From sequence record OZ035752.1: a DNA stretch of 41,072 bases. One strand, 5' to 3'. Numbering within the stretch: position 1 is the stretch's first letter; each line of letters opens with the position of its first letter. The stretch is from Kagunavirus LF7074P1. The translations under genes and the position numbers were made by a program. Under the pieces are notes generated by a model, which was not told the origin of the DNA, searched no databases, and saw only the letters and a list, made by a program, of their open reading frames with translations. Positions 13,017-36,345 of this stretch are shown piece by piece.

Positions 13017-13031
13017 TGTTGGTGTAAGTGA

Positions 13032-13060
13032 ATAGTACCCTATTATATTGGGGTGTGCAA
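13032..13060 (-). promoter_or_regulatory. sigma70-like promoter with palindromic operator
   Basis: minus-strand TTGCAC-17 bp-TACTAT; operator AATAG-N4-CTATT at 13031-13044; near-identical to plus-strand promoter at 35040-35068. Confidence 0.55.
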
Positions 13061-13168
13061 GTAATGTGATAGAATAAGTTTGCGCCTAGTGTCGCACACG
13101 AAAAGCGGGTGGTTCCCGTCTGGCGCATTTATCGTTAACCTGTAACCTCTTAACCAAAGGATTAAAGA

Positions 13169-13585
13169 ATGAAACTTTCTGATTTTTATTTCGAAGAGAA
13201 AGCACTGGTAGGCAAGAAGATGCCCATTCTGCTGCCAAACGGCGAAGACTCCGGTGAATGGCTTAACGTTGTAAGTCCCGATGCGGATGTCGCCGTTAAA
13301 GCGGGGCGTGCTTTCATTATTGCGTACCGTCGCGGGTTGGCGCGTTTCGAAGAACTGGAAAAAGCCGCCAAAGAATCCGGCGACTATACTGAATATAACC
13401 TGGCTATTAACGAACTGGCGGAAGACCTCAACCGGCAACTCGCGGCAGAAGTCGTAAACGGCTGGAGCTTTGATGAGCCTTTCTCTAAAGAAGCATTTAA
13501 CAAATTGCTGGACCAGTTCAAGGCATTAGGCACACAGGTAGCAGCGTTCCATAACGCTGAGCGCAAAGCATTACAGGAAAAGTAG
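13169..13585 (+). CDS. tail assembly chaperone (G-like)
   Basis: 138-aa acidic protein upstream of tape measure; RBS AAGGA; slippery run near its 3' end. Confidence 0.6.
   Translation: MKLSDFYFEEKALVGKKMPILLPNGEDSGEWLNVVSPDADVAVKAGRAFIIAYRRGLARFEELEKAAKESGDYTEYNLAINELAEDLNRQLAAEVVNGWSFDEPFSKEAFNKLLDQFKALGTQVAAFHNAERKALQEK
13575..13582 (+). other. putative -1 programmed frameshift site
   Basis: AGGAAAAG run (zero-frame GAA AAG) one codon before the G-like stop. Confidence 0.4.
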
Positions 13586-13950
13586 ACGCGCTGTACAGGT
13601 TCGCCACCTATGAGTTTGTGGATAAGCATAAAATCAGAGAGTTTGATTCTATAGCCGACGGACACGAACAGGCGCTTATCGCGATGGGTGTAATCGATAA
13701 GAAAAAACGTGCAGCGCGACGGGGTGGGCCAGAATGCCCGCCCCTTTTTATATCCACCTTCGAGACGTACTGCGACATTAAGTTTACGCGACACGTGCGC
13801 GAGGACGCTGTAGTATTGTTCGCAAGAGAATCCGTTACGTGGCAAGACCTGAAAGCCTATCTCGATGTTACGCAAAAACAGCTTAGCCTGTTCGAGATAG
13901 ACATTATCATGGGCTTAGAAGCAATCTTTGAAGGTAGAAATCATGGCTGA
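13576..13950 (+). CDS. tail assembly chaperone GT extension (via -1 frameshift)
   Basis: -1 frame open from the end of the G-like gene to 13950, ending inside the tape-measure start; typical G/GT layout; ORF track lists this frame from GTG 13618. Confidence 0.45.
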   Translation, partial: GKVDALYRFATYEFVDKHKIREFDSIADGHEQALIAMGVIDKKKRAARRGGPECPPLFISTFETYCDIKFTRHVREDAVVLFARESVTWQDLKAYLDVTQKQLSLFEIDIIMGLEAIFEGRNHG

Positions 13951-16216
13951 TACCGCTAGCTTGATCGTACGAGTATCATCGACCGGCGTCGATAAAACCA
14001 CATCACAACTGAACGGGCTTACCAAAGCCGCGGGGGCCGCCGCCGCTGCCGTTGTCAGTCTGGAAACTGCCAAACAGGTGTTCAGTGCGCTGGTGGACTC
14101 CCAGCGCAACTTCGATAAGCTGAACTCCGGCCTCATCACAATGACCGGGAGCGCCGAGAACGCTGCTAAGGCATTCAGCGTCCTGCAACAGTTCGCAAAA
14201 GAAACTCCGTATGGCCTCAATCAGGCGGTAGAGGGGTTTACCAAGCTCGTGGCGCTAGGTCTTAACCCCAGCAAAGAGGCGTTAATATCCTACGGCAACA
14301 CCGCGGCGGCTATGGGTAAAGACCTTAATCAGATGATTGAGGCGGTTGCCGACGCCAGTACCTTTGAGTTTGAGCGACTGAAAGAGTTCGGTATCAAGTC
14401 TTCCCAACAGGCGGATACCGTTTCGTTCACGTTCCGCGGCGTCACCACCACGGTTAAAAAGAACTCCGAAGAGATTCAGAAATACCTGCTAAACATCGGC
14501 AACACCGATTTCGCCGGGGCGATGGAGACGCGCTCTAAGACGTTAGACGGTCAGTTGTCGAGCCTGGCGGACTCCTTTGATGGCCTTGTACTTGCGGTAG
14601 CGCAATCCGGTTTCGGCGACGCCGTAGGTGAGCAAGCCGCGAAGGCAGAAGACGCTATTTCGGCACTCACCGACGCCATTGCGTCTAATGAGATAGCCGC
14701 CACGCTCCAGGATTGGGTGACACTGTTCAATGAATCATTCAAGTTTATTTCTGATGCCTTAAACGACCTGGCATACGATACCGAGGACAAATCCGCGGAT
14801 ATGTCAGACTCGCTGGGTACTATACCGGATGCTATCCGTGAATGGTTGCCTGACATCCAGCAGACGTTTCACGAGGTTATTGCGTGGTTCCAGCGCATTG
14901 ACGATTACGCCGTAGCGTTAGGTCAGACCCTCGCAGACGTGTTTGATCCGAGCAAAACGGCAGCACTCACATTTAAAAACCTGACCGCAGAAGCTGACGC
15001 CGCATACGCCGCCAGCATAAAACGCGCCGAGGCCGAATCACAGGCCATCACCAACAGGTCTAAGCAGCGTAAGAAAGAAATTGAGGAACAGCGCAAGCAG
15101 TACAACGAGCGTAAGAAGCAAGAAATAGACTTAGCCAGCCTTGTTAATAAAAAGGGCGGAACTGGTGGGGCAGGAAATGCCAACGACAAAGACGCGAAAG
15201 CCGCCGCTAAGAAAGCGGAGCAATTGCGCAAACAAGCCCAGGATTACCTCGACACTTTGGCCCGTCAGAACAACGACGAGTTAAAGGCTATCGACGCGCA
15301 GGAACAGCAGAAACTGGCTAAGGCAAAAGAGTTCTACAGCCAGGGCGCGTTGTCCCTGAAAGAATATGAACAAGCTAAAACAGCTATCGTCCTCGAAGCC
15401 GGGCAAAAACGACAAGATGAACTGGATAAACGCCAGAAAGAAGCCCAGGAAAAGCAACAGAAAGGTGACGACTTCATGGCTCAGATTATGGGTCAGAACG
15501 CTACTGAGCTTGAGCTTCTCGACATCCAGGAACAGCAGAAACTGGCGGTAGCGGATAAGTACCGCGAGCAGGGTTTTATTAGCGAGAAGCAGTATCAGGC
15601 CGCTCTTAACGCCATCAACGAGCAATACGCAACCAAACGTGCCGATGCAACGGCAACGGCCTTTGGTAACATGGCCTCAAACATCGGGTCTGCGTTGGGT
15701 GAGGCTTCTGGCGCGTACAAGGCATTCGCTATCGTACAGGCAACTATCGCCACGTACACCGCAGCTATTGAGGCGTACAAGTCAACGGCAGCTATCCCTG
15801 TAGTTGGCCCGTTCCTGGCCCCTGTAGCCGCTGCCGCTGCCGTTGGTGCAGGTATGGCGCAGGTTTCCGCTATCCGGTCCGCGCGTGAACAGGGCGGACA
15901 GTTATCCGCAGGGCAGGCTTCCACCATCGCAGAACGCGGTAAACCAGAAGTTATTATGCCGGCTGGCGCATCTCGTGTTCGCACAGCACAGCAGATGAAA
16001 GAAATTATGGGGCAAAACGGGTCTTCTTCCGGCCCGTCTAATGTTACTATCGTAAACAACACGAGTTCTCAAATCGGCAACGTATCCACTGAGCAAGATG
16101 ACGAAGGCCGTTTGCGAATCATCATCGAGGAGCAGGTGGCTGCCTCTTTGCAGAATAGCAACAGCAAGATTAGCAAGGCCCGCAAAGCCACAAGAAATGC
16201 GCCGGGGTTTAAATAA
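13943..16216 (+). CDS. tail tape measure protein
   Basis: 757 aa from ATG 13943 (RBS AAGG; track start 13928 is TTG); Ala/Gln/Glu/Lys-rich repetitive sequence; follows chaperones. Confidence 0.8.
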   Translation: MADTASLIVRVSSTGVDKTTSQLNGLTKAAGAAAAAVVSLETAKQVFSALVDSQRNFDKLNSGLITMTGSAENAAKAFSVLQQFAKETPYGLNQAVEGFTKLVALGLNPSKEALISYGNTAAAMGKDLNQMIEAVADASTFEFERLKEFGIKSSQQADTVSFTFRGVTTTVKKNSEEIQKYLLNIGNTDFAGAMETRSKTLDGQLSSLADSFDGLVLAVAQSGFGDAVGEQAAKAEDAISALTDAIASNEIAATLQDWVTLFNESFKFISDALNDLAYDTEDKSADMSDSLGTIPDAIREWLPDIQQTFHEVIAWFQRIDDYAVALGQTLADVFDPSKTAALTFKNLTAEADAAYAASIKRAEAESQAITNRSKQRKKEIEEQRKQYNERKKQEIDLASLVNKKGGTGGAGNANDKDAKAAAKKAEQLRKQAQDYLDTLARQNNDELKAIDAQEQQKLAKAKEFYSQGALSLKEYEQAKTAIVLEAGQKRQDELDKRQKEAQEKQQKGDDFMAQIMGQNATELELLDIQEQQKLAVADKYREQGFISEKQYQAALNAINEQYATKRADATATAFGNMASNIGSALGEASGAYKAFAIVQATIATYTAAIEAYKSTAAIPVVGPFLAPVAAAAAVGAGMAQVSAIRSAREQGGQLSAGQASTIAERGKPEVIMPAGASRVRTAQQMKEIMGQNGSSSGPSNVTIVNNTSSQIGNVSTEQDDEGRLRIIIEEQVAASLQNSNSKISKARKATRNAPGFK

Positions 16217-16716
16217 TGAGCGACTTATATTTCCCACGTAGCCTTAAGCCAATTGTATCGAAAGGCTACTCAATGACCAGACGTAACAACGTCTGGAGTG
16301 TAGATTTAGCCGGTGGCGGGGTGCGTCAGGGCCGTGACACGTATTACGACGTGTTCCCTGTTAGCGTAACCCTGATTACATCCGCAATGGGGCGACAGGC
16401 GTTTCTGTCGTTCCTCGAAAAAGTAGACGGCGGTGCGTCAAGTTTCTGGATGGCGCACGACTTCGGCATGGGCATCGAAGATTATCAGGTAACCATTACG
16501 TCCACTATCGCCGAGTCCACCGAAGACGGGATTAACTGGACAATCACCTTCACGGCAACCGCCGAGAAATCGCCGTTCCAGGACCTTGAGAACCAGTGCC
16601 TGATTAACAATCTGCCGGATTTGTACGGTTGCTATGGTGACGGGCTGGGGTGTTTCCTTAAAGCCTACGGAACTGCACAATCAACGTTTCCACGAATTTG
16701 GGACCCGATGCAATGA
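16216..16716 (+). CDS. minor tail protein (M-like position)
   Basis: 166-aa ORF starting at tape-measure stop (TAATG); position. Confidence 0.5.
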   Translation: MSDLYFPRSLKPIVSKGYSMTRRNNVWSVDLAGGGVRQGRDTYYDVFPVSVTLITSAMGRQAFLSFLEKVDGGASSFWMAHDFGMGIEDYQVTITSTIAESTEDGINWTITFTATAEKSPFQDLENQCLINNLPDLYGCYGDGLGCFLKAYGTAQSTFPRIWDPMQ

Positions 16717-17228
16717 GCCAGGAATCAGTAGAAGCATCCTATCGCCGTAAGCTGGCGTCTAACCCGGACGGCGAGATGGACTACATCACGTTGCAAATCA
16801 GCCACCCGTTGCTATCAAAGACGTACTATCTTGTGCGCGGGCTACAGGAACTTACGGCAACACTGGAGACAGGCGAAACTATCACGTTTGAGCCAACCCC
16901 GATGGAGGCGTCGGGGGCCGCTAACAATAGTGATATGGACCAGACGACGACGTTTACTCTACCGGATATTCTCAATCAACTGGACGATGAGATGGATAAA
17001 ATCCCGATGAGCAATACTGAGTTGCCGAAGTTCGTATTCCGCCGTTACGTCAGCACCGACCTGTCTTACCCGGCTGACGGCCCCGTCGTGTACGAGTTAC
17101 AGGCCATCAACCAGGAGAAAGGCGAGTTTTCTGCGGATGTTGGTACGCCTATGCTGAACCAACGAAGCACTGGTATACTGATGACACCTAAAGAGATACC
17201 GTTATTACGCGGCCTGTTGACCACATGA
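16698..17228 (+). CDS. minor tail protein (L-like position)
   Basis: 176-aa ORF overlapping neighbours; position. Confidence 0.5.
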   Translation: MGPDAMSQESVEASYRRKLASNPDGEMDYITLQISHPLLSKTYYLVRGLQELTATLETGETITFEPTPMEASGAANNSDMDQTTTFTLPDILNQLDDEMDKIPMSNTELPKFVFRRYVSTDLSYPADGPVVYELQAINQEKGEFSADVGTPMLNQRSTGILMTPKEIPLLRGLLTT

Positions 17229-17590
17229 ATATTAACGACTACACGGGCATACCTTACGACTTTCGCAAGCGCAATTGCTGGCATCACGTGCGCATTGTCC
17301 GCGCGGATGCCGGGCTAGATACTCCGGCGTTCGACGTTACAAGCCCGACGGCAATTAACGAAGCGTTTGACGAAGGCCACCGCAACACAAAAGGGCTTAC
17401 GAAAATTGATAAGCCTGAAAACTTCTGTGCGGTGCTTATGGGGTATCGCCGTGGGGGTCGTATCGTGTGGCACGCAGGAGTTTACTTCGACGGGATGGTC
17501 AGCCATTGCGAGCTTGCCTCACGTCAGGTACGGCTTGACAGGCTGGCGGACCTCAGAGACACGTACACGGAGATTGAATTTTGGCGATAA
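17225..17590 (+). CDS. tail protein with NlpC/P60-like Cys-His motif (K-like)
   Basis: 121 aa; Cys in RNCWHH and His in WHAGVY; ATGA overlap. Confidence 0.5.
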   Translation: MNINDYTGIPYDFRKRNCWHHVRIVRADAGLDTPAFDVTSPTAINEAFDEGHRNTKGLTKIDKPENFCAVLMGYRRGGRIVWHAGVYFDGMVSHCELASRQVRLDRLADLRDTYTEIEFWR

Positions 17591-20136
17591 TCCTGCACTA
17601 CACGCGAAACGCTGATGGAGCTTTCGACCGTACAAAACACGTCGGGATGCCGATGGAGTTTGTCGTTAACCGTATCCCTGACGGCGTGCCGGTGCGCGTC
17701 TACCTCGGCGAGATTGGTGATGATACCGACGTAACTGACGACTTCGACGCACTCAAAGACGAAGACGCTGTGTACCACATTATTGAGGGTGCGGGTAGCG
17801 GGGCGCTCGGTGCGGTTAGTAAGGTGTTTGGTTTTATCCTTAAGCCAATCGCCAAGTTGTTTGGCCTGAACACGGCCGCCAACGCCAACTACACGGCGAC
17901 TAACAACCAGACAACATCGCCTAATAACAGTCTCACAGACCGCTCAAACAAACCACGCCCTTACGAGCGCTCTTATGACATCTGCGGGACTGTGCAGACA
18001 ATCCCTAACGACCTGATGCAGACGTATAAAGCGTTCAACTCCACGGGTGCTTTGCTGGAGTATTCGTATTATGACGCGGGGCGCGGGCATCTGCATATTG
18101 AGGCTGATGGCGTAACGGAAGGCGACACCCTGATAAGCGACATCACAGGCTCCTCTGTAGCCGTGTATGCGCCGTATACTTCCCCGAACAACACCGCATC
18201 GCCCCAACTACAAATCGGCGACGTCATTGACCAGAAACTCTATGTGACATACTCCAACGACGACGTTGACGGTATTGTGCTGAAAGCGCCAAACGACATC
18301 GGAGCTAACCCAAGCGCCGACGGCACGGCTAAACGTATTTCAAACACCGGCTACATTTATGACCCGTCCGGCGACTCTGCTTTTTCTGAGTTTCTTAGCG
18401 TCGGTGATGTCGCGGTGTTGAGCAACTTTGACGTTGCTGATGTCACTAACCTGAACGGCTCGTTTGAGGTTTTATACGTTGACGACTTCGAAGTAAGATT
18501 AGCCGTAAACGGGGCGTCTAACTGGGCCGCGTTGACTAGCGGGCAGACGTACACGCTAACAGAGCGTTCAGATACGTTTATCGGCCCGAGCAACACCTAC
18601 GACGTATCCCTTACAGACTGGTATTACATGGTGCGTGGGGAAGTCGACCGTGTGCTCGCTAACGTAGCCGGGCAGAACGGCCTCTACAAATACGACGGCG
18701 GCTACAACCGCACCAGCGTAACCGTAGAACTCCAGTACCAGATGATTGATTCTCAGCGTAACCCGTTGAGCGATATCTACACGGTACAGGCCACAATTAC
18801 CGGTAACAATACCGACTACGTCGGCACGTCTATTTACGGGCAGTTACCGACAGCATCGCGCTTCCGCGCCCGTATGCGCCGTATAACGAATTTCGATAAG
18901 GATTACGACGGAACGGTAAGTGACGAAATAACATTCATCAACCTGTACGGGCAATCACTTGACACCACCCCCCACTACGGCAATAGGACAACGGTGCATT
19001 GCGCCCGTAAACAGACGCCGCGTGCGGCCAGTATAGACAACCCGGAACTGCGCATGATTGCAACCGAGATGTGTTACAAATATCTAGGTAACGGCGTATT
19101 TGATAGCGTAATGACACCGAACACCCGGGCCGTGCAGTCGCTAATCAGACTGGCTCGAGACCCTGCGGTGGGTAATCTGGAACTGACAACGGCAAATATG
19201 GATAAGTTACTCGCTGTGCAGGAAGAAATTGAGTCCTATTTTGGCAGCGAATTAGCCGGACAATTCTGCTACACGTTCGACGACTACGACACCACGATGC
19301 AGGACGTCGTTCAGACTATAGCGGAAGCCGTGTTCTGTACTGCGTACCGTAAAGGCGCGGATATTATGCTGCGATTCGACCGTCCGGTTGCGGGGCCTGA
19401 AATGGTGTTCACCCACCGCAGCAAAACTACCGGTACAGAGAAATGGACCCGCACGTTCAACGATTCGACAACCTACGATAGCCTGTCGTTCTCGTACATC
19501 GACCCGGATACTAATGTACAGGAAACGATTTATATCCCGGAAGAACTCGGGGCAAATACAGAGGAATACGAATCGAAGGGCGTACGTAACTATCAGCAGG
19601 CGTATTGGCTGGCGTGGCGTCGCTATCAGCGCAATGCGTTAAGTAAAGTTGTCGTAGAGTTTGAAGCTACCGAAGAAGGTGCGCTCGCTACTCCAGGCGG
19701 TGTAATCAGCGTAGTTAAAGGCTCGCGTATTGCGCCACAGGACGGCTATGTTATTGCCGTTAATGGGCTTACGCTGACACTGTCGCAGCCTGTTACGTTC
19801 ACCCCCGGCGATGACCACTCCATCATTCTTAAGAAGCGCGACGGCTCTGTGCAGAGTATCTCTGTTATCAAAGGAAGCCACGACCGCGAAGTGATTATGC
19901 TTTCTGCCCCAGAGGAAGCAATCTACACAGGGAATAGCGCACTAAAAACTGAGTTTTCATTCGGCAACGAAGCAAGGCATAATGCTCAGAAGATAGTTGT
20001 TTCTTCAATCGACCCTGGCGACGACCGCACGGTCAAGATTACTGGCTACAACTATGACGACGGATTCTACAAATACGACGGCGTCGCGCCATACGGCAGC
20101 GGTTTCTCCGACGGATTCAGCAATGGTTTTAATTAA
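17581..20136 (+). CDS. tail tip / central fibre protein (J-like, putative)
   Basis: 851-aa ORF (TTG at 17581, first ATG 17647) between K-like gene and tailspike. Confidence 0.55.
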   Translation: MAIILHYTRNADGAFDRTKHVGMPMEFVVNRIPDGVPVRVYLGEIGDDTDVTDDFDALKDEDAVYHIIEGAGSGALGAVSKVFGFILKPIAKLFGLNTAANANYTATNNQTTSPNNSLTDRSNKPRPYERSYDICGTVQTIPNDLMQTYKAFNSTGALLEYSYYDAGRGHLHIEADGVTEGDTLISDITGSSVAVYAPYTSPNNTASPQLQIGDVIDQKLYVTYSNDDVDGIVLKAPNDIGANPSADGTAKRISNTGYIYDPSGDSAFSEFLSVGDVAVLSNFDVADVTNLNGSFEVLYVDDFEVRLAVNGASNWAALTSGQTYTLTERSDTFIGPSNTYDVSLTDWYYMVRGEVDRVLANVAGQNGLYKYDGGYNRTSVTVELQYQMIDSQRNPLSDIYTVQATITGNNTDYVGTSIYGQLPTASRFRARMRRITNFDKDYDGTVSDEITFINLYGQSLDTTPHYGNRTTVHCARKQTPRAASIDNPELRMIATEMCYKYLGNGVFDSVMTPNTRAVQSLIRLARDPAVGNLELTTANMDKLLAVQEEIESYFGSELAGQFCYTFDDYDTTMQDVVQTIAEAVFCTAYRKGADIMLRFDRPVAGPEMVFTHRSKTTGTEKWTRTFNDSTTYDSLSFSYIDPDTNVQETIYIPEELGANTEEYESKGVRNYQQAYWLAWRRYQRNALSKVVVEFEATEEGALATPGGVISVVKGSRIAPQDGYVIAVNGLTLTLSQPVTFTPGDDHSIILKKRDGSVQSISVIKGSHDREVIMLSAPEEAIYTGNSALKTEFSFGNEARHNAQKIVVSSIDPGDDRTVKITGYNYDDGFYKYDGVAPYGSGFSDGFSNGFN

Positions 20137-20148
20137 AGAGGACTCTAT

Positions 20149-25399: not shown

Positions 25400-25429
25400 T
25401 TCTCAATTCCTTATATTGTTGGTGTGTGA

Positions 25430-25717
25430 TTAACTATAATAGCCCGCTATTAGGTCGTCAACCTGTTTAAACGAACCAACGACAAAAACATTTGCACCAC
25501 GTTTACGCATCCGCTCGTGCTCTCGTAACTGGTGCGGGTCCGGCTTCGTGTTTTCGTCTTTCTTAACCTCGACGAACCAGATGATGCCACCAGGGAGAAT
25601 TACCAGCAGGTCGGGGGCGCCCGCTCTATTTTCGTACGACAATTTGCGTACGAGGCCTCCCAGGGCCTCGAATCGCTCTTTTGCGTATTTCTGCACGCGC
25701 CCCTCAGGCGTACTCAT
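25430..25717 (-). CDS. VRR-NUC domain nuclease (putative)
   Basis: 95 aa; PD-(D/E)xK-type residues in APDLLVI..FVEVKK. Confidence 0.6.
   Translation of the reverse strand: MSTPEGRVQKYAKERFEALGGLVRKLSYENRAGAPDLLVILPGGIIWFVEVKKDENTKPDPHQLREHERMRKRGANVFVVGSFKQVDDLIAGYYS
25433..25461 (-). promoter_or_regulatory. sigma70-like promoter with palindromic operator
   Basis: minus-strand TTGACG-17 bp-TATAGT; operator AATAG-N4-CTATT at 25438-25451; overlaps 3' end of VRR-NUC gene. Confidence 0.5.
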
Positions 25718-25798
25718 CTATACACCCCTCCCGTTTCGTATGCGCGATACCGCAGCGAGGGCAGATTCGACAGTCTTCTTCATATAACCAGTAAATTT

Positions 25799-28169: not shown

Positions 28170-28189
28170 TATTTTCGACCCTTAGTAAA

Positions 28190-28208
28190 AAGGCCCAATG
28201 AAGGGCCT
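28190..28208 (-). terminator. terminator-like hairpin
   Basis: AAGGCCC-n6-GGGCCTT; on minus strand followed by TTTTT; between SSB-like and polymerase genes. Confidence 0.5.
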
Positions 28209-28228
28209 TAGTTAAATTGATTCAGATA

Positions 28229-28855: not shown

Positions 28856-28920
28856 AGTTCAGCCCTCATTAAGTTTAGATTTTCAGTTTACTCCGGGAAG
28901 CTGCCCGGCCAGTGATTAGA

Positions 28921-28949
28921 ACTATAATAGCTAACTATTCAGGTGTCAA
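28921..28949 (-). promoter_or_regulatory. sigma70-like promoter with palindromic operator
   Basis: minus-strand TTGACA-17 bp-TATAGT; operator AATAG-N4-CTATT at 28926-28939. Confidence 0.55.
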
Positions 28950-28953
28950 CACT

Positions 28954-30225: not shown

Positions 30226-30584
30226 CCTAAACTCTCCAAATACAAGTTTAATGCCTGTAGCTGTTCTTCTGTGGGGATGAAAGAATCATCGCGGTGTAAG
30301 TCGCTTAACTGTTGCAACATTCCTGCGAACTGACGTCTTGCGTCAACAGCGACCATGTGATGCTTTTCACTTTTGTATATTAATGTTTTCGGGTAATCCT
30401 CAAGCCTGCCAGACGATTTATTCACGCGGAGCGCGCGAGCTTCGTGCGCAATGTGGATGTACTTTTTGCCGTTTTGTAGCACAGTAGCTACACCGCTGTT
30501 CTTTCTGCGGTCACCGACGGTGTAAACTTTGTCGCCGCTGCGCAAATTAAGCCACCATTTATCAGTCATACCCTGTTCTCCCAC
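30222..30584 (-). CDS. hypothetical protein (120 aa)
   Basis: ORF with start/stop overlaps in early operon. Confidence 0.5.
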   Translation of the reverse strand: MGEQGMTDKWWLNLRSGDKVYTVGDRRKNSGVATVLQNGKKYIHIAHEARALRVNKSSGRLEDYPKTLIYKSEKHHMVAVDARRQFAGMLQQLSDLHRDDSFIPTEEQLQALNLYLESLG

Positions 30585-30838
30585 TGATCAATTAAATGTC
30601 GTGTCTTATGGTCGCAGTGCATAGCCCAGCTGTACATCGGCTCAAAGACATAAAAGTCAGGCTTGGCGAATGTCGTGCGCTTAATCTGCGACACGTGACG
30701 GCCTATATCTTTAGACAGCGGTACTTTGCCTAAGTACGCCATCTCTTCCATCTGGTGTGCACCGGACGGCGCACGCAATAACCATAGCGCCTCTGTGGTA
30801 TCCCGCCGGTCAACGGCGCGGTATAGTTGGTAAATCAT
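30566..30838 (-). CDS. hypothetical protein (90 aa)
   Basis: RBS GAGGG; overlaps downstream ORF. Confidence 0.5.
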   Translation of the reverse strand: MIYQLYRAVDRRDTTEALWLLRAPSGAHQMEEMAYLGKVPLSKDIGRHVSQIKRTTFAKPDFYVFEPMYSWAMHCDHKTRHLIDQWENRV

Positions 30839-30858
30839 AATCCCGACCCTCAGTTAAA

Positions 30859-30874
30859 GCGGCCCGAAGGCCGC
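30859..30874 (-). other. intergenic stem-loop
   Basis: GCGGCC-CGAA-GGCCGC between first and second genes of leftward operon; weak U-tract on minus strand. Confidence 0.4.
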
Positions 30875-30881
30875 GGGATAG

Positions 30882-31391
30882 TTATTCTTCTTCGAAATAC
30901 TTGTTCTTGATTGCTGTCAGGCGCTCCAGATACTCAGCCAGGTCTTCGTCTTTAATCGCTGCAATCTTCATCTTCTTACCGGTAAACTCTTCCAGCAGTT
31001 CGTCAGAATCGTCGCACGCGGCATCGCTTGGGCCTTCGTTAATCGCATCGTCGATAGCCTGAATCTGGTCGCGCAGAGACTGGTAATCGACTTCTTCTTT
31101 CTCTTCTTCCGGCTCTGGCGTTGGCTCCTCTACTTTAGCTTTACGCGGCTTGCGTTTCGGCTTCTCTTCTTCCGCAGGTTTAGTGTCAACGAGGTCCTCG
31201 CCTTCGACCGGGATTTCTTTCCCGACGCCAGTGCCTGGGTCGACTTCAAGCACCTCTCCGGTAACCGATACATCTACAAGCATTTCACCTACACACTCAG
31301 TTGACGGCATCGGTCGTTTCGCGCTGTTCGCAGCAATCAGTTCATGCGCAACTACGAAACGTTCCAGTAATACTAAGAATTTCTCTAACAT
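30882..31391 (-). CDS. acidic early protein (hypothetical)
   Basis: 169 aa; Glu/Asp-rich C-terminal half; first gene after promoter 31423-31451; leader contains AAACGAGAGGAG. Confidence 0.6.
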   Translation of the reverse strand: MLEKFLVLLERFVVAHELIAANSAKRPMPSTECVGEMLVDVSVTGEVLEVDPGTGVGKEIPVEGEDLVDTKPAEEEKPKRKPRKAKVEEPTPEPEEEKEEVDYQSLRDQIQAIDDAINEGPSDAACDDSDELLEEFTGKKMKIAAIKDEDLAEYLERLTAIKNKYFEEE

Positions 31392-31422
31392 TATTTATTC
31401 TCCTCTCGTTTGGTATGGGCTA

Positions 31423-31451
31423 ACTATAATAGCGAACTATTCACTTGTCAA
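31423..31451 (-). promoter_or_regulatory. sigma70-like promoter with palindromic operator
   Basis: minus-strand TTGACA-17 bp-TATAGT; operator AATAG-N4-CTATT at 31428-31441. Confidence 0.55.
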
Positions 31452-31470
31452 TGGGCTTTTCTAAAATAAT

Positions 31471-31484
31471 TAATATGGTACTAT
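31471..31484 (+). promoter_or_regulatory. extended -10 promoter-like element
   Basis: TGgTACTAT with operator-like AATAT-N4-CTATT; about 30 nt upstream of HTH gene. Confidence 0.35.
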
Positions 31485-31515
31485 TCACATATCAACTGAC
31501 TAAGGAGTAATTGAC

Positions 31516-31731
31516 ATGCAACCATCTGAACTAGGCATCCGTGTAGAGCAACGCCGTAAAGAACTCGGTATCTCCCAGCGCCATCTGGCTGTCCTGGCCG
31601 GTGTTTCCCAAGGCGCGATTAACCAGCTGGCACTTGGAGTAACTCAGGACGTCCGCCCGGCGACGCTGTTTAAACTGGCGGAAGTGCTGGAAGTAGACGC
31701 CAAGTGGCTGGCGTTCGGTGAAGGGGCTTAA
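31516..31731 (+). CDS. XRE-family HTH transcriptional regulator (Cro/CI-like)
   Basis: 71 aa; RBS AAGGAG 8 nt upstream; HTH ELGISQRHLAVLAGVSQGAINQ. Confidence 0.75.
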   Translation: MQPSELGIRVEQRRKELGISQRHLAVLAGVSQGAINQLALGVTQDVRPATLFKLAEVLEVDAKWLAFGEGA

Positions 31732-31745
31732 CGCCCCTTTCTTTT
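31721..31745 (+). terminator. intrinsic terminator
   Basis: AAGGGGC-TTAAC-GCCCCTT followed by TCTTTTT; overlaps stop codon of HTH gene. Confidence 0.6.
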
Positions 31746-31748: not shown

Positions 31749-33956
31749 CTATTCCAAATCCTCTTCTGTCACCACCAGCATTTCATTCGGTTCGTATATT
31801 GTCTTCGGTCTTAGTCTATCCCCTATTCTTTCAGGTATACGATACGTTCTCGGTACTACTTCGCCATTAGCATCACAGCCTAGCATTAGTTCACCATCTT
31901 TCAGCATTTTATCAAGATGGGTGTTAGTCACAGAAAAGTCACCGGAACGGGCCACTATCTGCTGCTGAGTAAAACCGCGACCTGTGTCATCTGACTGTTG
32001 CAGGTCTTCCAGTGCCGAAAGTATCGACTCCTTCCTTACTTCATCCCTGCCGCGTTTAACTTCTTCCTTTACTTTTTGTTTACCTTCGTTAGTTAACCCT
32101 TCTTCCCGCTCTTTCTCCTCGTCAGTTTTGAACGGCTCGAAGCCCCACGGCATCAGAACAAGCGCCTTGTGTGGTTCCGGCAGGTCGAGGTTTACGATTG
32201 TGCCGTATTCCTCTGTGCTGCCCAAGAACTCAACAGCACGGTACTCTTTCGGCGGTGGTGCTTCACGGAACTGTACAGACTCAAGTACCATGCCAACCGT
32301 TTTCTGTTGAGGCCCGTGCTTAAATTTCGAGTGGTATACGTTTATCTGACGGTCGGTTGCACGTTCTATTGTCAGTTCCACATCGACACCCGCATACAGC
32401 GCCCCGCTGCCACGGGCTTTCTTTCCGCCCTTCGGTGTATGGTGGACGACGCCCACCGCGGCTTTAGTTGCGTCACGTACTTCTTTAAGGATGGCGATAA
32501 CTTTACCCATGCCGATTGCCGTTGATGAACTGTTCTCGTCGAACTTATCAATCGTCATGGCCAGTGTCTGGTTAAGGGTGTCGAACGCAACCATCCCAAT
32601 TGGCTCGTCACCCGCAGTTTCTCGCATTAGCTTAATCAGGCTTTTCAGTTTGCCAACTTCGCCCATATCGATGACATGTACATAATCTTTACCTTCCTCG
32701 CCGTATTTAGCCGCGAGTGCATCAATACGGGTGCGTGTGGCAGCACCGCCCTCACCGTCAATATAGAAATGGTGGCAACGCTGTGTATCAGCGCCTGCAA
32801 ACCGGTACCCGGCGGCGCTCAGGTACATCATACCCAGCGTATAGAATGATTTATATGTGCCGGATTCCCCGACGATGTCCCAGATGCAATCCGACGGCAT
32901 GTACCCTTCAACGACGAAATCAGCCTTTACCGGTTCAGGTAACTCGTCATCGTCTTCAAGGTCTTCCAGTGTACAAGTTACAGGCTCCTCGTTCTCTGTG
33001 CGGTGCAGTTCTTCAATCTCTTCATCCGGTAAATCAGGCAGAGCCGCACGAATGCTGTTAATACTGATAGGTTGCTTGTCTACGTTAAGCTCGTCCGGAA
33101 GGCCGCACATACGCAGGGCCAAATGTTGTCGGCGGTTAAGCTCAGTGCAAGCACCGTTGTTTGTGTGCTGGCACACGAAGCGCACTTCTTTACCGTCGAG
33201 CATGATGCTGGTGGAGCCTTTGCCGGTGTGCAGGTGTTCGTTAGGGCAAGGCACTTCGTACCCGCGACCGGAAGATAAAGCGTCAAGGCCAAGCTCCGCT
33301 TCGCAGAAATGCGCTATATCCGCGTTAAGCCCATGCTCATCGGCAGCAAGGGTCTTAGCTTCACGCTTACGCAACCCCATTTCTTCGGCTTTCTTGATGT
33401 ACCGCTCGGCACGGATAACACGCCCTTCTGTAACCGTTATCTTCGACTCTTTATGCGGCAGGTAGATAAGGCGGTTGCCATCTTCTGTGCAGTGGTCGCG
33501 CAATGCTTCGTCTATTTCTAACTCAGCACAAATAGCACGTTGCACCATCCACGCGTCGTTAGAGTTAAACGGCGTGCGGGCCGGTACAAGAACGCGGAAA
33601 GCGTAGTCACCGTTTTTACACGCGTGCTGGTGCGACGCCGTTGTGTGCAGAATATTGAAGAACGGCGCGTTCTTGAATTTGCGGGTGAGGTCGCGGTACT
33701 GGGTACGGTTTAGATGGTCGAAATCGAACTTAACCACACTGTCTTCCAGAATCGCGTTCTTACGGCGACCGCCAACCGGCGCAATAGCTTTCTGCTTAAT
33801 CTTGGCCGCGTCGTACTCTTCCTTAGTCCATGACGGGTCTACGGACAGACGCTTCGATGTATCGCAGACATACTCTACAAACTGCTCCAGTGGCATTTCA
33901 CGGGCTACCGGGTTTTTATCGAAAGTGTTACGCAGCGTTGCAAAAACAATATTCAT
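31749..33956 (-). CDS. primase-polymerase / helicase (AEP-like N-terminus, Cys cluster, P-loop ATPase)
   Basis: 735 aa; VVKFDFDH (hhhDxD-like); CPNEH..C..H..C cluster; Walker A GESGTYKS. Confidence 0.65.
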   Translation of the reverse strand: MNIVFATLRNTFDKNPVAREMPLEQFVEYVCDTSKRLSVDPSWTKEEYDAAKIKQKAIAPVGGRRKNAILEDSVVKFDFDHLNRTQYRDLTRKFKNAPFFNILHTTASHQHACKNGDYAFRVLVPARTPFNSNDAWMVQRAICAELEIDEALRDHCTEDGNRLIYLPHKESKITVTEGRVIRAERYIKKAEEMGLRKREAKTLAADEHGLNADIAHFCEAELGLDALSSGRGYEVPCPNEHLHTGKGSTSIMLDGKEVRFVCQHTNNGACTELNRRQHLALRMCGLPDELNVDKQPISINSIRAALPDLPDEEIEELHRTENEEPVTCTLEDLEDDDELPEPVKADFVVEGYMPSDCIWDIVGESGTYKSFYTLGMMYLSAAGYRFAGADTQRCHHFYIDGEGGAATRTRIDALAAKYGEEGKDYVHVIDMGEVGKLKSLIKLMRETAGDEPIGMVAFDTLNQTLAMTIDKFDENSSSTAIGMGKVIAILKEVRDATKAAVGVVHHTPKGGKKARGSGALYAGVDVELTIERATDRQINVYHSKFKHGPQQKTVGMVLESVQFREAPPPKEYRAVEFLGSTEEYGTIVNLDLPEPHKALVLMPWGFEPFKTDEEKEREEGLTNEGKQKVKEEVKRGRDEVRKESILSALEDLQQSDDTGRGFTQQQIVARSGDFSVTNTHLDKMLKDGELMLGCDANGEVVPRTYRIPERIGDRLRPKTIYEPNEMLVVTEEDLE

Positions 33957-34081
33957 TTCTTTTTCTCCGCGCGTTCTAAGGCTTCCTGCATACGACGCAT
34001 TGCGCGGTTCATCTTTACCGGTGCGAAGAAATCAGCGCCGTGTTTCTGGCGGCGCAACTGTGGAACTATTAACTTCGTCAT
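33953..34081 (-). CDS. hypothetical small basic protein (42 aa)
   Basis: not in ORF track; RBS AAGGA; stop overlaps primase start (ATGA). Confidence 0.35.
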   Translation of the reverse strand: MTKLIVPQLRRQKHGADFFAPVKMNRAMRRMQEALERAEKKK

Positions 34082-34150
34082 TGTATAATCCTTGTGCTTA
34101 CTTTGATGATTTGTGCTTCGGCCCCGACGTTCTAGCGTTGGGGTTTCTTT

Positions 34151-34441
34151 TTACCGTTTAGCCAACTCTTCCAGCAAATTTTTATACTCTTCAAAATATT
34201 CCTCGACCAAATCATCGCCGAAATAGAAGTCGATATACTCGAGATTATCTCTTACGTTAAGCGACGCAGACATGGTGCTTAGTTGGCGTAAGCTAATTAG
34301 CTTCATTTCTGTTTCTACACAGAAAGGCCGGTAGGTATCGAGGTGGCAAGAGATGTTGAAGCATAAAGCGAACTCTCCCGCCACGGAGTGAACCATATAC
34401 ACTTCGTTTTCTGCTTTATTGTGGAAAATTACACCTTTCAT
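34151..34441 (-). CDS. hypothetical protein (96 aa)
   Basis: ORF with ATGA overlap to upstream HTH gene. Confidence 0.5.
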   Translation of the reverse strand: MKGVIFHNKAENEVYMVHSVAGEFALCFNISCHLDTYRPFCVETEMKLISLRQLSTMSASLNVRDNLEYIDFYFGDDLVEEYFEEYKNLLEELAKR

Positions 34442-34620
34442 TTCACATTCTCCTTAATCCATTCTTCAACTTTATTACGGTCAAATGTACCTGGTAAACG
34501 GCGACCCATAACCTTAATACAACAATCAGGGAATTTACCACTGCGCAACCAGTTATTAATTGTCTGACGTGTTACCCCAATACGCTCGGCTACTTCATTC
34601 TGGGTCATGTAATGTTGCAT
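34438..34620 (-). CDS. small HTH DNA-binding protein (Cro/excisionase-like)
   Basis: 60 aa from ATG 34620 (RBS AGGAG 8 nt upstream); HTH VAERIGVTRQTINNWL; ORF-track start 34734 lacks RBS and would overlap promoters. Confidence 0.55.
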   Translation of the reverse strand: MQHYMTQNEVAERIGVTRQTINNWLRSGKFPDCCIKVMGRRLPGTFDRNKVEEWIKENVK

Positions 34621-34651
34621 TTTTATATCTCCTGTTTGTTTGGTGAAGCTG

Positions 34652-34680
34652 AGTATAGGATAGCGGGAATGTAAAAGCAA
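34652..34680 (-). promoter_or_regulatory. sigma70-like promoter (leftward early operon)
   Basis: minus-strand TTGCTT-17 bp-TATACT, about 30 nt upstream of HTH gene. Confidence 0.45.
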
Positions 34681-34717: not shown

Positions 34718-34747
34718 TTGAAAGTTCTTGACACATGTTTGTATAAT
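34718..34747 (+). promoter_or_regulatory. sigma70-like promoter (rightward)
   Basis: TTGAAA-18 bp-TATAAT; divergent from 34652-34680. Confidence 0.55.
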
Positions 34748-34774
34748 GGTTTTGGGACTTGTATATATTACGGA

Positions 34775-34806
34775 GTTGACGAACCCTCCCTGAGGGATTC
34801 GTCAAC
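34775..34806 (+). other. long hairpin / inverted repeat in leader
   Basis: GTTGACGAA-CCCTC-cct-GAGGG-a-TTCGTCAAC, 14 bp stem with one bulge, about 20 nt after predicted start site. Confidence 0.6.
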
Positions 34807-34946
34807 CCCTCCCAGACAGCTGAGATGCTTGTTTTAGGGTTTAAGGATAAGTGTATCTAAATCTCATTTAAAGAAGTAACCCACTGAAATATCTACTGTT
34901 TCTTAATGTGCCGTAGATTCGCAACCGTAAAAATGTAACGATTATT

Positions 34947-34972
34947 GGGCAGGCTTAAGGCCTGCCCTTTAG
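34947..34972 (+). terminator. terminator-like hairpin
   Basis: GGGCAGGC-TTAAG-GCCTGCCC followed by TTTAGTT. Confidence 0.5.
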
Positions 34973-35039
34973 TTACCAAGTAATAAGAATAAAGGCACAA
35001 CCTTCCCCGAAGAATCACAACGGCAACGTAACTAATCTC

Positions 35040-35068
35040 TTGCACACCCCAACATAATAGGATACTAT
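35040..35068 (+). promoter_or_regulatory. sigma70-like promoter with palindromic operator
   Basis: TTGCAC-17 bp-TACTAT; operator AATAG-N4-CTATT at 35056-35069; leader AAACGAGACAGAGGAG. Confidence 0.55.
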
Positions 35069-35102
35069 TCACTTATCGAAACGAGACAGAGGAGTGAGGG
35101 TT

Positions 35103-35766: not shown

Positions 35767-35769
35767 GAT

Positions 35770-35970
35770 ATGAGCGAGTGGATTAAGTGTAGTGAGATGC
35801 TGCCAGGTAATGGGTATACGGATAAAGAGTTCCTGGTGTATGAAACGTTAAATAACGCAGTTCAGCACGATTATTACATAGTTCCTGATGACGGGAGAAA
35901 GCCTTTCTGGAATCACTACGATAAGTACGTGACGCACTGGATGCCGTTACCCGAGCCGCCAGAAGTGTGA
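35770..35970 (+). CDS. hypothetical protein with C-terminal THWMPLPEPP motif (DUF551-like)
   Basis: 66 aa; RBS GGTGAG; C-terminal W-x-P-L-P-x-P-P recalled from DUF551 phage proteins. Confidence 0.5.
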   Translation: MSEWIKCSEMLPGNGYTDKEFLVYETLNNAVQHDYYIVPDDGRKPFWNHYDKYVTHWMPLPEPPEV

Positions 35971-36104
35971 TGTTCAATAGTTTGGGATCTTACTGAGTGA
36001 CTTACGCTGCTACACAGCAGCGTACAACTTTAACTTAGTGTCGTCAAAAGGCGACACTTTCATCAAACGCAACAATCGAAGCGACTATTGCAGGAGATGC
36101 AACA

Positions 36105-36278
36105 ATGATTACTAAAGAACAGGCTGAACGACTAATCACGTTAATCGACACGATGATTGACGTAAAAACCGATTTAGCAACGGCAACAGAGGAATCCGCT
36201 ACCTGGTCGCTTGAAGAAAGAGAAGCAGAAGCGGAAAGGGAGTTACTGGCGTTCATCGACTCTATAACACACCAATAA
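36105..36278 (+). CDS. hypothetical small protein (57 aa)
   Basis: not in ORF track; RBS GGAG 10 nt upstream; preferred over antisense ORF 36044-36256. Confidence 0.4.
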   Translation: MITKEQAERLITLIDTMIDVKTDLATATEESATWSLEEREAEAERELLAFIDSITHQ

Positions 36279-36285
36279 AATTTAC

Positions 36286-36314
36286 TTGCACACTAAGATA
36301 GAATAGGCTACTAT
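36286..36314 (+). promoter_or_regulatory. sigma70-like promoter with palindromic operator
   Basis: TTGCAC-17 bp-TACTAT; operator GAATAG-N4-CTATTC at 36301-36316; leader AAACGAGAGGGGAG. Confidence 0.55.
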
Positions 36315-36345
36315 TCATTTACACAAACGAGAGGGGAGACAGAAT

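What the first reader, a model, noticed from the sequence alone, without database searches (positions are those of the whole stretch)
13030..36316. Genome-wide 14-bp palindromic operator AATAG-N4-CTATT overlapping the -10 of promoters on both strands, with a shared leader
The inverted repeat AATAG-N4-CTATT occurs at six promoters: 13031-13044, 25438-25451, 28926-28939, 31428-31441, 35056-35069 and 36302-36315, plus a degenerate copy AATAT-N4-CTATT at 31471-31484. Minus-strand promoters read TTGAC(A/G)-17-TATAGT and plus-strand ones TTGCAC-17-TACTAT, so the operator overlaps the -10 or spacer in every case. Several transcripts share a leader AAACGAGA(n)GGAG before the start codon (31391 minus; 35103, 36346, 38901 plus). 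The 13060 and 35040 promoters are almost identical over about 35 bp. This looks like a single regulon controlling early/replication operons and the accessory operon. Candidate binders encoded here are the XRE HTH protein (31516-31731), the Cro-like HTH (34438-34620) and the HTH of the metallophosphoesterase (11635-12771).
Basis: seen in the sequence. Interest (0 to 1): 0.6.

Follow-up and report, generated by a model that had tools for sequence, protein, structure and literature searches.

The report
Cro-like repressor operators at phage promoters
A lytic E. coli phage (Kagunavirus) carries the same 14-bp palindrome on top of seven of its promoters, most likely the binding site of its own small 434-Cro-like repressor; this is an ordinary kind of phage gene control, but earlier papers mislabelled the motif as a "phage RNA polymerase promoter".

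Summary
All seven overlap predicted sigma-70 core promoters.

The window is the whole genome of Kagunavirus LF7074P1 (Guernseyvirinae), a lytic siphovirus with no RNA polymerase gene.

Across 29-55 related loci the half-sites are almost invariant: 0.6% of distinct sequences differ, against 6.3% in the flanks. The central N4 is hypervariable (19%). The palindrome sits at two different offsets from the -35 (-25..-12 and -19..-6). Two distant clades keep the same promoter layout but show symmetric half-site changes (TTAG-N4-CTAA, ATAC-N4-GTAT). This pattern fits a dimeric protein's operator and does not fit plain promoter consensus.

The best candidate binder is the 71-aa HTH_3 protein at 31516-31731. 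Its best PDB match is 434 Cro. It is present in every clade, sits beside two operators, and has an operator-like site in its own promoter. Binding is inferred, not shown. The excisionase-like HTH_17 protein is a weaker rival.

PHIRE had already reported the motif in relatives (PMC9825357). I rate this a new member of a known kind, of moderate interest.

The parts
13031..13044 (.). Operator O13031 (AATAGTACCCTATT). It overlaps the -10 TACTAT (13032-13037, minus strand) of the promoter with -35 TTGCAC at 13055-13060. This promoter drives the minus-strand accessory operon: Imm-like superinfection immunity protein 12810-13016, SbcD-like exonuclease 11635-12771, PNKP-type HAD phosphatase 11153-11638 and a P-loop protein 10599-11153.
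25438..25451 (.). Operator O25438 (AATAGCCCGCTATT) in the spacer of minus-strand promoter TTGACG (25456-25461)-17-TATAGT (25433-25438). The promoter drives 25205-25399, the SNF2 helicase 23778-25208 and the Toprim-like protein 23266-23781.
28926..28939 (.). Operator O28926 (AATAGCTAACTATT) in the spacer of minus-strand promoter TTGACA (28944-28949)-17-TATAGT (28921-28926). The promoter drives the Enc34/gp2.5-like ssDNA-binding protein 28229-28855, DNA polymerase A 25920-28169 and VRR-NUC 25430-25717.
31428..31441 (.). Operator O31428 (AATAGCGAACTATT) in the spacer of minus-strand promoter TTGACA (31446-31451)-17-TATAGT (31423-31428). The promoter drives 30882-31391, 30566-30838, 30222-30584 and the PD-(D/E)XK/DUF2800 exonuclease 28954-30225. 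It is divergent from the XRE gene.
31472..31485 (.). Imperfect operator AATATGGTACTATT in the XRE gene's own promoter. It spans -19..-6 if the -10 is TACTAT (31479-31484), or -2..+11 if the promoter is TTCACT (31440-31445)-16-TAAAAT (31462-31467). The imperfect half-site AATAT is kept in all 38 related loci.
35056..35069 (.). Operator O35056 (AATAGGATACTATT) overlapping the -10 TACTAT (35063-35068) of plus-strand promoter TTGCAC (35040-35045). The promoter drives the small early genes from 35103 onward.
36302..36315 (.). Operator O36302 (AATAGGCTACTATT) overlapping the -10 TACTAT (36309-36314) of plus-strand promoter TTGCAC (36286-36291). The promoter drives the genes from 36346 onward.
38834..38847 (.). 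Candidate eighth, weaker operator ACTAGTTGACTATT, whose centre is the -35 TTGACT (38839-38844) of promoter TTGACT-17-TATATT. Its 14-mer is almost invariant in 39 related loci, although the -35 alone could explain part of that.
31516..31731 (+). Candidate repressor: a 71-aa XRE/HTH_3 protein, the same length as 434 Cro and similar to it along its full length. A terminator-like hairpin follows at 31720-31740.
34438..34620 (-). Rival candidate binder: a 60-aa HTH_17 (excisionase/MerR-like) protein, the first gene of the helicase-primase operon. Its own promoter (TTGCTT-17-TATACT, read by eye from the sequence at about 34640-34670) lacks the palindrome.
31404..31411 (-). Shared leader AAACGAGA followed by GGAG. 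Further copies lie at 35079-35086(+), 36325-36332(+) and 38879-38886(+, CAACGAGA).

Best explanation
AATAG-N4-CTATT is most likely the operator of a phage-encoded dimeric repressor, the 71-aa 434-Cro-like XRE protein at 31516-31731. The proposed mechanism is as follows. Host sigma-70 RNA polymerase fires the promoters for the replication/recombination operons, the small early-gene operons and the accessory Imm/exonuclease operon. XRE is made from its own weak promoter. The conserved imperfect site in the XRE promoter would give weaker negative autoregulation. The non-contacted, variable central 4 bp may tune affinity site by site, as in 434. What is shown here: the motif, its statistics, its promoter overlap by consensus, its dyad-specific conservation, its clade-specific symmetric variants, and the family and fold of the protein. 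What is inferred: that anything binds, that the binder is XRE, that binding represses, and the timing.
For: (1) Enrichment: 6 exact sites against 0.03 expected, and the top dyad of all tested. (2) The same dyad ranks first in Bas72 (7 against 0.04) and, as TAATAG-N4-CTATTA (4 against 0.003), in Salmonella phage Jersey. (3) At orthologous promoters in 29-55 loci the fraction of distinct sequences differing from the window is 0.006 in half-sites, 0.193 in N4 and 0.063 in flanks. P25438 shows 12 N4 variants with intact half-sites in 43 of 45 loci. (4) The dyad has two registers relative to the -35 (N4 and N10), both inside the core promoter. That is expected for a separate repressor site and not for an RNA polymerase contact. 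(5) Clade L066/L075 keeps the -35, the -10 TATAGT and the leader hairpin of the SSB promoter, but its dyad is TTAG-N4-CTAA, 4 per 20 kb against 0.15 expected. This is a symmetric change at positions 2 and 13. Clade L052 has ATAC-N4-GTAT, 3 sites. (6) The XRE protein matches Pfam HTH_3 at 44 bits (cut-off 23) and 434 Cro at E 5.5e-7 over residues 6-68 of 71. Its model's top fold matches are HipB, 434 Cro, P22 C2 and SinR. From established knowledge, 434 operators are also 14-bp dyads with conserved outer bases and a non-contacted centre. (7) XRE homologs are present in all four complete genomes and in all clades with variant dyads. The promoter region upstream of XRE carries an operator-like site in Kagunavirus, L052, L056 and L066. 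(8) Clades L066, L075 and L052 have dyads but no HTH_17 homolog in the sequence held; there XRE heads the helicase-primase operon.
Against: There are no binding, start-site or expression data for this phage. The exact AATAG-N4-CTATT motif co-occurs perfectly with the HTH_17 protein: Kagunavirus and Jerseyvirus share both, at 79% identity and with a nearly identical putative recognition helix. XRE is only 51% identical between these genera and differs at several helix-3 positions. Cornellvirus and the L056 and L068 clades have XRE homologs but no clearly enriched 5-N4-5 dyad. The L066, L075 and L052 loci cover only part of their genomes, so absence of HTH_17 there is not proven. Related sequences are not independent samples, so the conservation contrast is descriptive and not a formal test. 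The structure model has only moderate confidence (pLDDT 76, no alignment).
Confidence: 0.55

Rival explanations
1. The dyad is an operator, but the binder is the 60-aa HTH_17 (excisionase/MerR-like) protein at 34438-34620, the first product of the helicase-primase operon, acting as an early repressor or modulator of the other promoters.
For: HTH_17 is present only in Kagunavirus, L041 and Jerseyvirus, which are exactly the groups with the perfect AATAG-N4-CTATT. Its HTH region is nearly identical between them (VTRQTINNW against VTRRTLNNW). Its own promoter lacks the dyad. In the K1B4 RNA-seq paper the only annotated early gene is an 'HTH domain' gene, K1B4_008, which by gene order is probably this protein (PMC12645636; the mapping is my inference).
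Against: HTH_17 is absent by tblastn and by HMM from the complete genomes of phiEap-2 and VSiP and from the L066, L075, L052 and L056 loci. Yet phiEap-2 has AATA-N6-TATT sites at orthologous promoters (8 against 0.45 expected), and L066/L075 have a clear dyad in the same architecture. From my own knowledge, small excisionase-like winged-helix proteins usually bind direct repeats as monomers or filaments and not 5-4-5 palindromes.
Confidence: 0.13
2. The dyad is not a separate operator. It is part of a phage-specific promoter consensus read by host RNA polymerase, possibly modified by a phage factor, or it is simply inherited by duplication of promoter cassettes.
For: The right half-site overlaps the -10 in class B, and the flanks of the dyad are also shared (ATAATAG...CTATTCAC). 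The 13031 and 35056 promoters are near-duplicates, and Bas72 has an extra copy at 5138 in front of an inserted gene. Each half-site is itself -10-like (AATAGT).
Against: Sigma-70 elements are asymmetric, yet here a symmetric pair is conserved while the bases between vary freely. The left half-site lies in the spacer, where RNA polymerase has no base-specific requirement. The dyad shifts by 6 bp relative to the -35 between classes. Distant clades change both half-sites symmetrically while keeping -35 and -10. Other promoter-like sites in the same genome lack the dyad.
Confidence: 0.1
3. The dyad is bound by a host (enterobacterial) transcription factor that the phage exploits.
For: The known hosts of the motif-bearing phages are all Enterobacteriaceae.
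Against: The half-site sequence changes between phage clades while the promoter architecture is kept, as expected for a co-evolving phage factor. I could recall no E. coli factor with this consensus; the OxyR half-sites ATAG/CTAT have different spacing (my own knowledge, not tested).
Confidence: 0.05
4. The motifs are promoters for a phage-encoded RNA polymerase, as labelled in the fBC-Eco01 paper.
For: PHIRE output is listed as 'Phage RNAP promoter' PP1-PP7, with consensus tgAATAGTa-ccTATTat-T (PMC9825357).
Against: No RNA polymerase domain was found in any large ORF. The five ORFs of 700 aa or more are the tape measure, a tail protein, the endosialidase tailspike, DNA polymerase A and the helicase-primase. 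The annotated relatives Bas72 and Jersey list no RNA polymerase. The motif is palindromic and sits between good sigma-70 -35 and -10 hexamers.
Confidence: 0.01

Closest known systems
Phage 434 Cro / 434 repressor with the 14-bp operators OR1-3 and OL1-3 (ACAA-N6-TTGT)
   Same: The protein has the same length (71 aa) and is alignable to 434 Cro end to end (E 5.5e-7), with an HTH_3 fold. The operator is a 14-bp dyad with conserved outer bases and a variable, presumably non-contacted centre. The sites overlap core promoters. The Gln at the start of helix 3 is invariant. Two operators lie in a divergent promoter region next to the regulator gene.
   Different: No CI partner, integrase or lysogeny module exists, so this is not a bistable switch. 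The operators are single sites scattered over at least seven promoters across 23 kb, not triplets at OR/OL. The half-site sequence differs. Binding is untested.
Lambda/P22 Cro acting as a lytic-phase repressor of early promoters
   Same: The proposed role is the same: a small repressor made early in lytic growth turns down early transcription by promoter occlusion.
   Different: Lambda Cro has a different fold. Here the regulon also covers replication, recombination and accessory operons in a strictly lytic phage.
Controller (C) proteins of restriction-modification systems with C-boxes
   Same: They are small XRE-family dimers. C.BclI, C.AhdI and C.Esp1396I are among the fold hits. They are autoregulatory, with palindromic sites at their own promoter.
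   Different: C-proteins act on one promoter with paired operators and first activate, then repress. Here there are many single sites at positions typical of repression.
PHIRE 'phage promoter' motif of Kagunavirus fBC-Eco01 (PMC9825357) and Golestan (PMC7203180)
   Same: The fBC-Eco01 motif is the same sequence element: 7 copies with consensus tgAATAGTa-ccTATTat-T.
   Different: The fBC-Eco01 paper interprets the motif as phage-RNAP promoters (the Golestan paper speaks only of PHIRE 'promoter sequences'; I did not read its sequences). Neither discusses dyad symmetry, an operator role or a regulator.

Membership tests
Cro/CI-type (XRE, Pfam HTH_3) repressor-operator system, 434-Cro-like | The regulator carries an HTH_3 domain above Pfam's curated threshold | tested here: met
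   PF01381 at 44.2 bits against a cut-off of 23, E 2e-11, residues 11-65. PHROG transcriptional regulator/repressor families also match.
Cro/CI-type (XRE, Pfam HTH_3) repressor-operator system, 434-Cro-like | Sequence and fold similarity to solved Cro/CI-type DNA-binding domains | tested here: met
   The best PDB hit by phmmer is 434 Cro (E 5.5e-7, residues 6-68), followed by 434 repressor and P22 C2. For the AF2 model (pLDDT 76), the top Foldseek hits are HipB, 434 Cro, P22 C2 and SinR, with TM 0.6-0.7.
Cro/CI-type (XRE, Pfam HTH_3) repressor-operator system, 434-Cro-like | Dyad-symmetric operator of about 14-18 bp with conserved half-sites and a less constrained centre | tested here: met
   half-sites differ at 0.6%, against 19% for N4.
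Cro/CI-type (XRE, Pfam HTH_3) repressor-operator system, 434-Cro-like | Operators overlap the RNA polymerase binding site of the regulated promoters | tested here: inconclusive
   This holds for consensus-predicted -35/-10 hexamers. No experimentally mapped start sites are available.
Cro/CI-type (XRE, Pfam HTH_3) repressor-operator system, 434-Cro-like | The regulator gene is adjacent to operators and autoregulated | tested here: inconclusive
   The gene lies 31-75 bp from two operator copies, and its own promoter holds a conserved imperfect site. Autoregulation itself was not tested.
Cro/CI-type (XRE, Pfam HTH_3) repressor-operator system, 434-Cro-like | The protein binds the operator specifically as a dimer | not testable with these tools
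   This needs EMSA, footprinting or ChIP, or at least protein-DNA co-folding, none of which is available here.
Lambdoid CI/Cro bistable immunity switch | A CI-type maintenance repressor (with an S24 peptidase or oligomerisation domain) and an integration module are present | tested here: not met
   No such ORF appears among the translated genes. The Bas72 and Jersey annotations list no integrase or CI. The papers state that no lysogeny genes were found (PMC7203180, PMC9825357).
Phage-RNA-polymerase promoters (label used in PMC9825357) | The phage encodes its own RNA polymerase | tested here: not met
   Pfam scans of the ten proteins tested, including all five ORFs of 700 aa or more, give tape measure, tail protein, endosialidase, DNA_pol_A, AAA_25 helicase-primase, SNF2 and nucleases, and no RNA polymerase domain. 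Annotated relatives have none.
Phage-RNA-polymerase promoters (label used in PMC9825357) | An asymmetric promoter motif that stands alone, without sigma-70 -35/-10 hexamers | tested here: not met
   The motif is a perfect palindrome embedded between TTGACA-17-TATAGT or TTGCAC-17-TACTAT hexamers.

The most novel reading that the evidence does not exclude
In this strictly lytic subfamily the Cro-like repressor and its scattered operators may act as an 'immunity type'. The specificity (AATAG, TTAG or ATAC half-sites) would diversify between clades so that an infected cell shuts down the early promoters of superinfecting phages of the same type but not of other types. This would be a heteroimmunity-like exclusion or carrier-state mechanism in phages that never lysogenise, coupled to the co-regulated Imm-like superinfection-immunity gene.
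Probability: 0.12. Interest if true: 0.65.

Novelty: new member of a known kind. Interest (0 to 1): 0.4.

Why it matters
Guernseyvirinae (Kagunavirus, Jerseyvirus) are among the phages most often isolated and proposed for therapy and food biocontrol against E. coli K1/UPEC and Salmonella. I found no published study of how their gene expression is regulated.

If this reading is right, a single small repressor and a 14-bp site would explain the coordinated control of the replication, early and accessory operons. It would also correct the published 'phage RNAP promoter' annotation.

It would give phage engineers a compact orthogonal repressor/operator pair, with natural specificity variants in related clades. 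Finally, it predicts a simple phenotype: XRE expressed in trans should inhibit infection.

Tried and rejected
- **Literature.** The only treatment of the motif found is the PHIRE listing. No operator, EMSA or start-site study of Guernseyvirinae turned up. The K1B4 RNA-seq paper gives only coarse timing, and its phage gene table was not among the held supplements, so my mapping of K1B4_004 and K1B4_008 to XRE and HTH_17 is inferred from gene order alone.
- **Dyad search in other clades.** Exact-dyad searches in Cornellvirus and in the L056 and L068 clades gave no clearly enriched 5-N4-5 palindrome. Reading the VSiP promoters by eye showed only half-matching sites (ATTAG-TTTA-GTATT, ATTAT-TAAA-CTATT). 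I did not pursue a de novo motif model there.
- **Recognition code.** Deriving a helix-3 to operator code from the XRE alignment failed. Kagunavirus and Jerseyvirus share the operator but differ at four helix-3 positions.
- **P13031 alignments.** The P13031 'orthologue' alignments in the IMG/VR loci are really paralogous hits to the P35056 promoter, because those loci do not reach that region. I do not count them as independent evidence.
- **Rfam.** A scan of the whole window found nothing.
- **Structure model.** It was made without an alignment and has only moderate confidence, so it supports the fold class only.
- **Alternative -10 for class B.** I considered the (T/C)ATAAT just upstream of the dyad. 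It has no conserved -35 partner except at 13031, so TTGCAC-17-TACTAT is preferred. The dyad overlaps the core promoter in either reading.

Full report
**What the window is.** A 12-kb query from the window matches Kagunavirus LF7074P1 (OZ035758.1, 41,071 bp) at 100% identity. It also matches about 466 other phage records, mainly E. coli Kagunavirus and Salmonella Jerseyvirus. The window is therefore essentially a complete genome of a lytic siphovirus of the subfamily Guernseyvirinae.

The gene layout (and the annotated relative Bas72) is as follows:
- Plus strand, 30-10569 and 13169-23103: packaging, head and tail genes, including an endosialidase tailspike.
- Minus strand, 10599-13016: an accessory operon with an Imm-like superinfection immunity protein, an SbcD-like exonuclease, a PNKP-type phosphatase and a P-loop protein.
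- Minus strand, 23266-31391: replication and recombination operons with an SNF2 helicase, VRR-NUC, DNA polymerase A, a gp2.5/Enc34-like SSB and a PD-(D/E)XK exonuclease.
- Plus strand, 31516-31731: a lone XRE gene.
- Minus strand, 31749-34620: a helicase-primase operon headed by an HTH_17 gene.
- Plus strand, from 35103: small early genes, lysis genes and a NinH-like gene.

**Check of the observation.** AATAGNNNNCTATT occurs exactly six times, at the stated coordinates, against 0.03 expected from dinucleotide shuffles. An unbiased scan of every 4-6-nt dyad with gaps 0-8 puts AATAG gap 4 first. A symmetric PWM separates the seven sites (19.1-21.9 bits) from the best shuffled score (17.2).

Oriented with transcription, the sites fall into two classes:
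- Class A (25438, 28926, 31428; minus strand): TTGAC(A/G)-N4-AATAG-N4-CTATT-ATAGT. The dyad spans -25..-12, and its last T is the first base of the -10 TATAGT.
- Class B (13031 minus; 35056 and 36302 plus; the imperfect 31472 plus): TTGCAC-N10-AATAGG-N-TACTATT. The dyad spans -19..-6 and contains the -10 TACTAT.

The 13031 and 35056 promoters are near-duplicates.

**Operator or plain promoter consensus.** Four results favour an operator.

1. Conservation pattern. I aligned each promoter (±60 bp) to 84 related sequences: four complete genomes and 80 IMG/VR loci around XRE homologs.
   - Among distinct sequences, the fraction differing from the window is 0.006 in the ten half-site columns, 0.063 in the flanks and 0.193 in the four central columns.
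   - At P25438 there are 12 different N4 sequences, with intact half-sites in 43 of 45 loci.
   - At the XRE promoter the imperfect AATAT half-site is kept in all 38 loci.
   - The sequences are related, so this is a contrast within one alignment and not a formal test. The P13031 hits in the IMG/VR loci are paralogous and are not counted.
2. Variable register. The dyad lies 4 bp after the -35 in class A and 10 bp after it in class B (7 bp in phiEap-2-like phages). This register would not vary if RNA polymerase read the dyad.
3. Clade-specific symmetric changes.
   - Clade L066/L075 (XRE 49% identical) keeps the SSB promoter's -35, its TATAGT and even the leader hairpin. In place of AATAG-N4-CTATT it has TTTAG-CGAG-CTAAT.
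   - Its core TTAG-N4-CTAA occurs 4 times per 20-kb locus against 0.15 expected, at promoters and at the XRE promoter itself. This is a paired change at positions 2 and 13.
   - Clade L052 has ATAC-N4-GTAT three times, again including the XRE promoter.
   - Jersey has TAATAG-N4-CTATTA four times against 0.003 expected.
   - phiEap-2 has a relaxed AATA-N6-TATT at eight sites, most of them at orthologous promoters, against 0.45 expected.
4. A subset of promoters. Other promoter-like sites in the window lack the dyad:
   - the helicase-primase operon promoter, TTGCTT-17-TATACT, read by eye;
   - TTGAAA-18-TATAAT at 34718;
   - TTGACA-17-GATACT at 38717.

The dyad therefore marks a regulated subset.

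**Who binds.** The window encodes several HTH proteins. The XRE protein is the best candidate:
- It is an HTH_3 protein of 71 aa whose best solved relative is 434 Cro, also 71 aa (E 5.5e-7 over residues 6-68), followed by 434 repressor and P22 C2.
- A single-sequence AF2 model (pLDDT 76) gives HipB, 434 Cro, P22 C2, SinR and R-M controller proteins as top fold matches.
- From established knowledge of the family, these proteins bind as dimers to 14-18-bp dyads. The 434 operators are 14 bp with conserved outer bases and a non-contacted centre that tunes affinity, which is the geometry seen here.
- The gene sits between O31428 and its own promoter's imperfect site.
- Homologs occur in all four complete genomes and in every clade with a variant dyad.

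The main rival is the 60-aa HTH_17 protein. It is found only in Kagunavirus and Jerseyvirus, exactly the groups with the perfect AATAG dyad. Its HTH is nearly unchanged between them, whereas XRE is only 51% identical.

Against the rival, tblastn and an HMM find no HTH_17 homolog in the complete phiEap-2 and VSiP genomes or in the L066, L075, L052 and L056 loci. In those loci XRE itself heads the helicase-primase operon. L066/L075 nevertheless have a clear dyad and phiEap-2 a relaxed one.

The other candidates are weaker. The NinH-like protein is 64-70% conserved across all four genera and so does not track the motif. The exonuclease with the N-terminal HTH is absent from phiEap-2.

I put XRE at about 0.55, HTH_17 at about 0.13, and give the rest to non-operator or host-factor readings.

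**Mechanism (inferred).** A protein bound at -25..-12 or -19..-6 of promoters with 17-bp spacers should occlude RNA polymerase, so the expected effect is repression. Class A promoters match the sigma-70 consensus at 10-11 of 12 positions and need no activator. The regulon covers three groups:
- the replication and recombination operons;
- the two rightward small-gene operons;
- the accessory operon, which begins with an Imm-type superinfection-immunity gene.

The conserved imperfection of the XRE promoter's site suggests weaker autorepression. The K1B4 RNA-seq study classes an 'HTH domain' gene as early and a 'specific DNA binding' gene next to the AAA-domain gene as middle. By gene order these are probably HTH_17 and XRE respectively, but the phage gene table was not available to confirm this.

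**Comparison with what is known.** The motif is not new as a sequence. PHIRE found seven copies in fBC-Eco01 (consensus tgAATAGTa-ccTATTat-T, called 'phage RNAP promoters') and seven 'promoters' in Golestan. That label fails. None of the ten proteins scanned, which include all five ORFs of 700 aa or more, has an RNA polymerase domain. The motif is palindromic and sits between sigma-70 hexamers. I found no paper that treats it as an operator.

The system works like 434/lambda Cro acting in lytic growth, but it is not a CI/Cro switch. There is no CI, no integrase and no clustered OR/OL triplets.

**Verdict.** This is a new member of a known kind and is of moderate interest.

Noticed in passing
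window 5213-5232, also 4395-4445; L004 11502-12681; L003 7645-7793: A second, different conserved palindrome, GGAATAATTTATTC, directly abuts a -35 TTGACA upstream of the scaffold and capsid genes. Arrays of TTATTCC/GGAATAA half-sites lie at 4395-4445. The same GAATAA-N-TTATTC dyad occurs 4 times in phiEap-2 (0.002 expected) and also in Cornellvirus VSiP. It may be a late-promoter regulator site.
   Followed up: partly
window 4448-4700: The promoter-like TTGACT-17-TAAGCT is followed by about 230 nt without an ORF and a strong hairpin plus T-run (about 4657-4682), just before the spanin gene at 4702. This layout is reminiscent of antitermination-controlled late operons.
   Followed up: no
window 34718-34975: The plus-strand promoter TTGAAA-18-TATAAT (11 of 12) points into about 200 nt with no ORF. 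The stretch contains a 9-bp-arm inverted repeat (GTTGACGAA...TTCGTCAAC, 34775-34806) and ends at a terminator at 34947-34967. It could be a small RNA or an origin region. Rfam has no match.
   Followed up: partly
window 13066-13095 (+): An extended -10-like element TGaTAGAAT, followed by AAGTTTGCGCCTAG, lies upstream of the tail-chaperone genes. It is conserved in Bas72, phiEap-2 and VSiP ('GGATAGAATAATTTTGCGGCTAGG'). It has no -35 and may be a late tail promoter that needs an activator.
   Followed up: no
window 28880-28915 (minus-strand leader of the SSB gene); L066 6790-6830: A hairpin CCGGGCAGCTTCCCGG in the 5' leader of the gp2.5/Enc34-like SSB mRNA is kept in the distant L066/L075 clade with changed stem bases (CTCGGCGGGTTCCGAG). 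It may be an mRNA-stabilising or autoregulatory element.
   Followed up: no
window 12985-13030 (-) and 25400-25432 (-): A second shared leader, ACCAACAAT(A/G)nAAGG, precedes the first genes of the 13031 and 25438 operons and is also seen in Jersey. The promoters therefore carry two leader types: this one and AAACGAGA..GGAG.
   Followed up: no
L001 5138-5151 (Bas72); fBC-Eco01 PP1/PP2: Relatives carry extra copies of the class-B promoter-plus-operator cassette in front of small minus-strand genes inserted in the structural region. This suggests that the cassette spreads together with accessory genes.
   Followed up: partly
window 31749-34620 versus L003, L004, L052, L056, L066: The helicase-primase module is inverted and only about 30% identical between Kagunavirus/Jerseyvirus and the other clades. 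In the first group it sits on the minus strand, headed by HTH_17. In the others it sits on the plus strand, directly downstream of XRE. This is a module replacement next to the regulator gene.
   Followed up: partly
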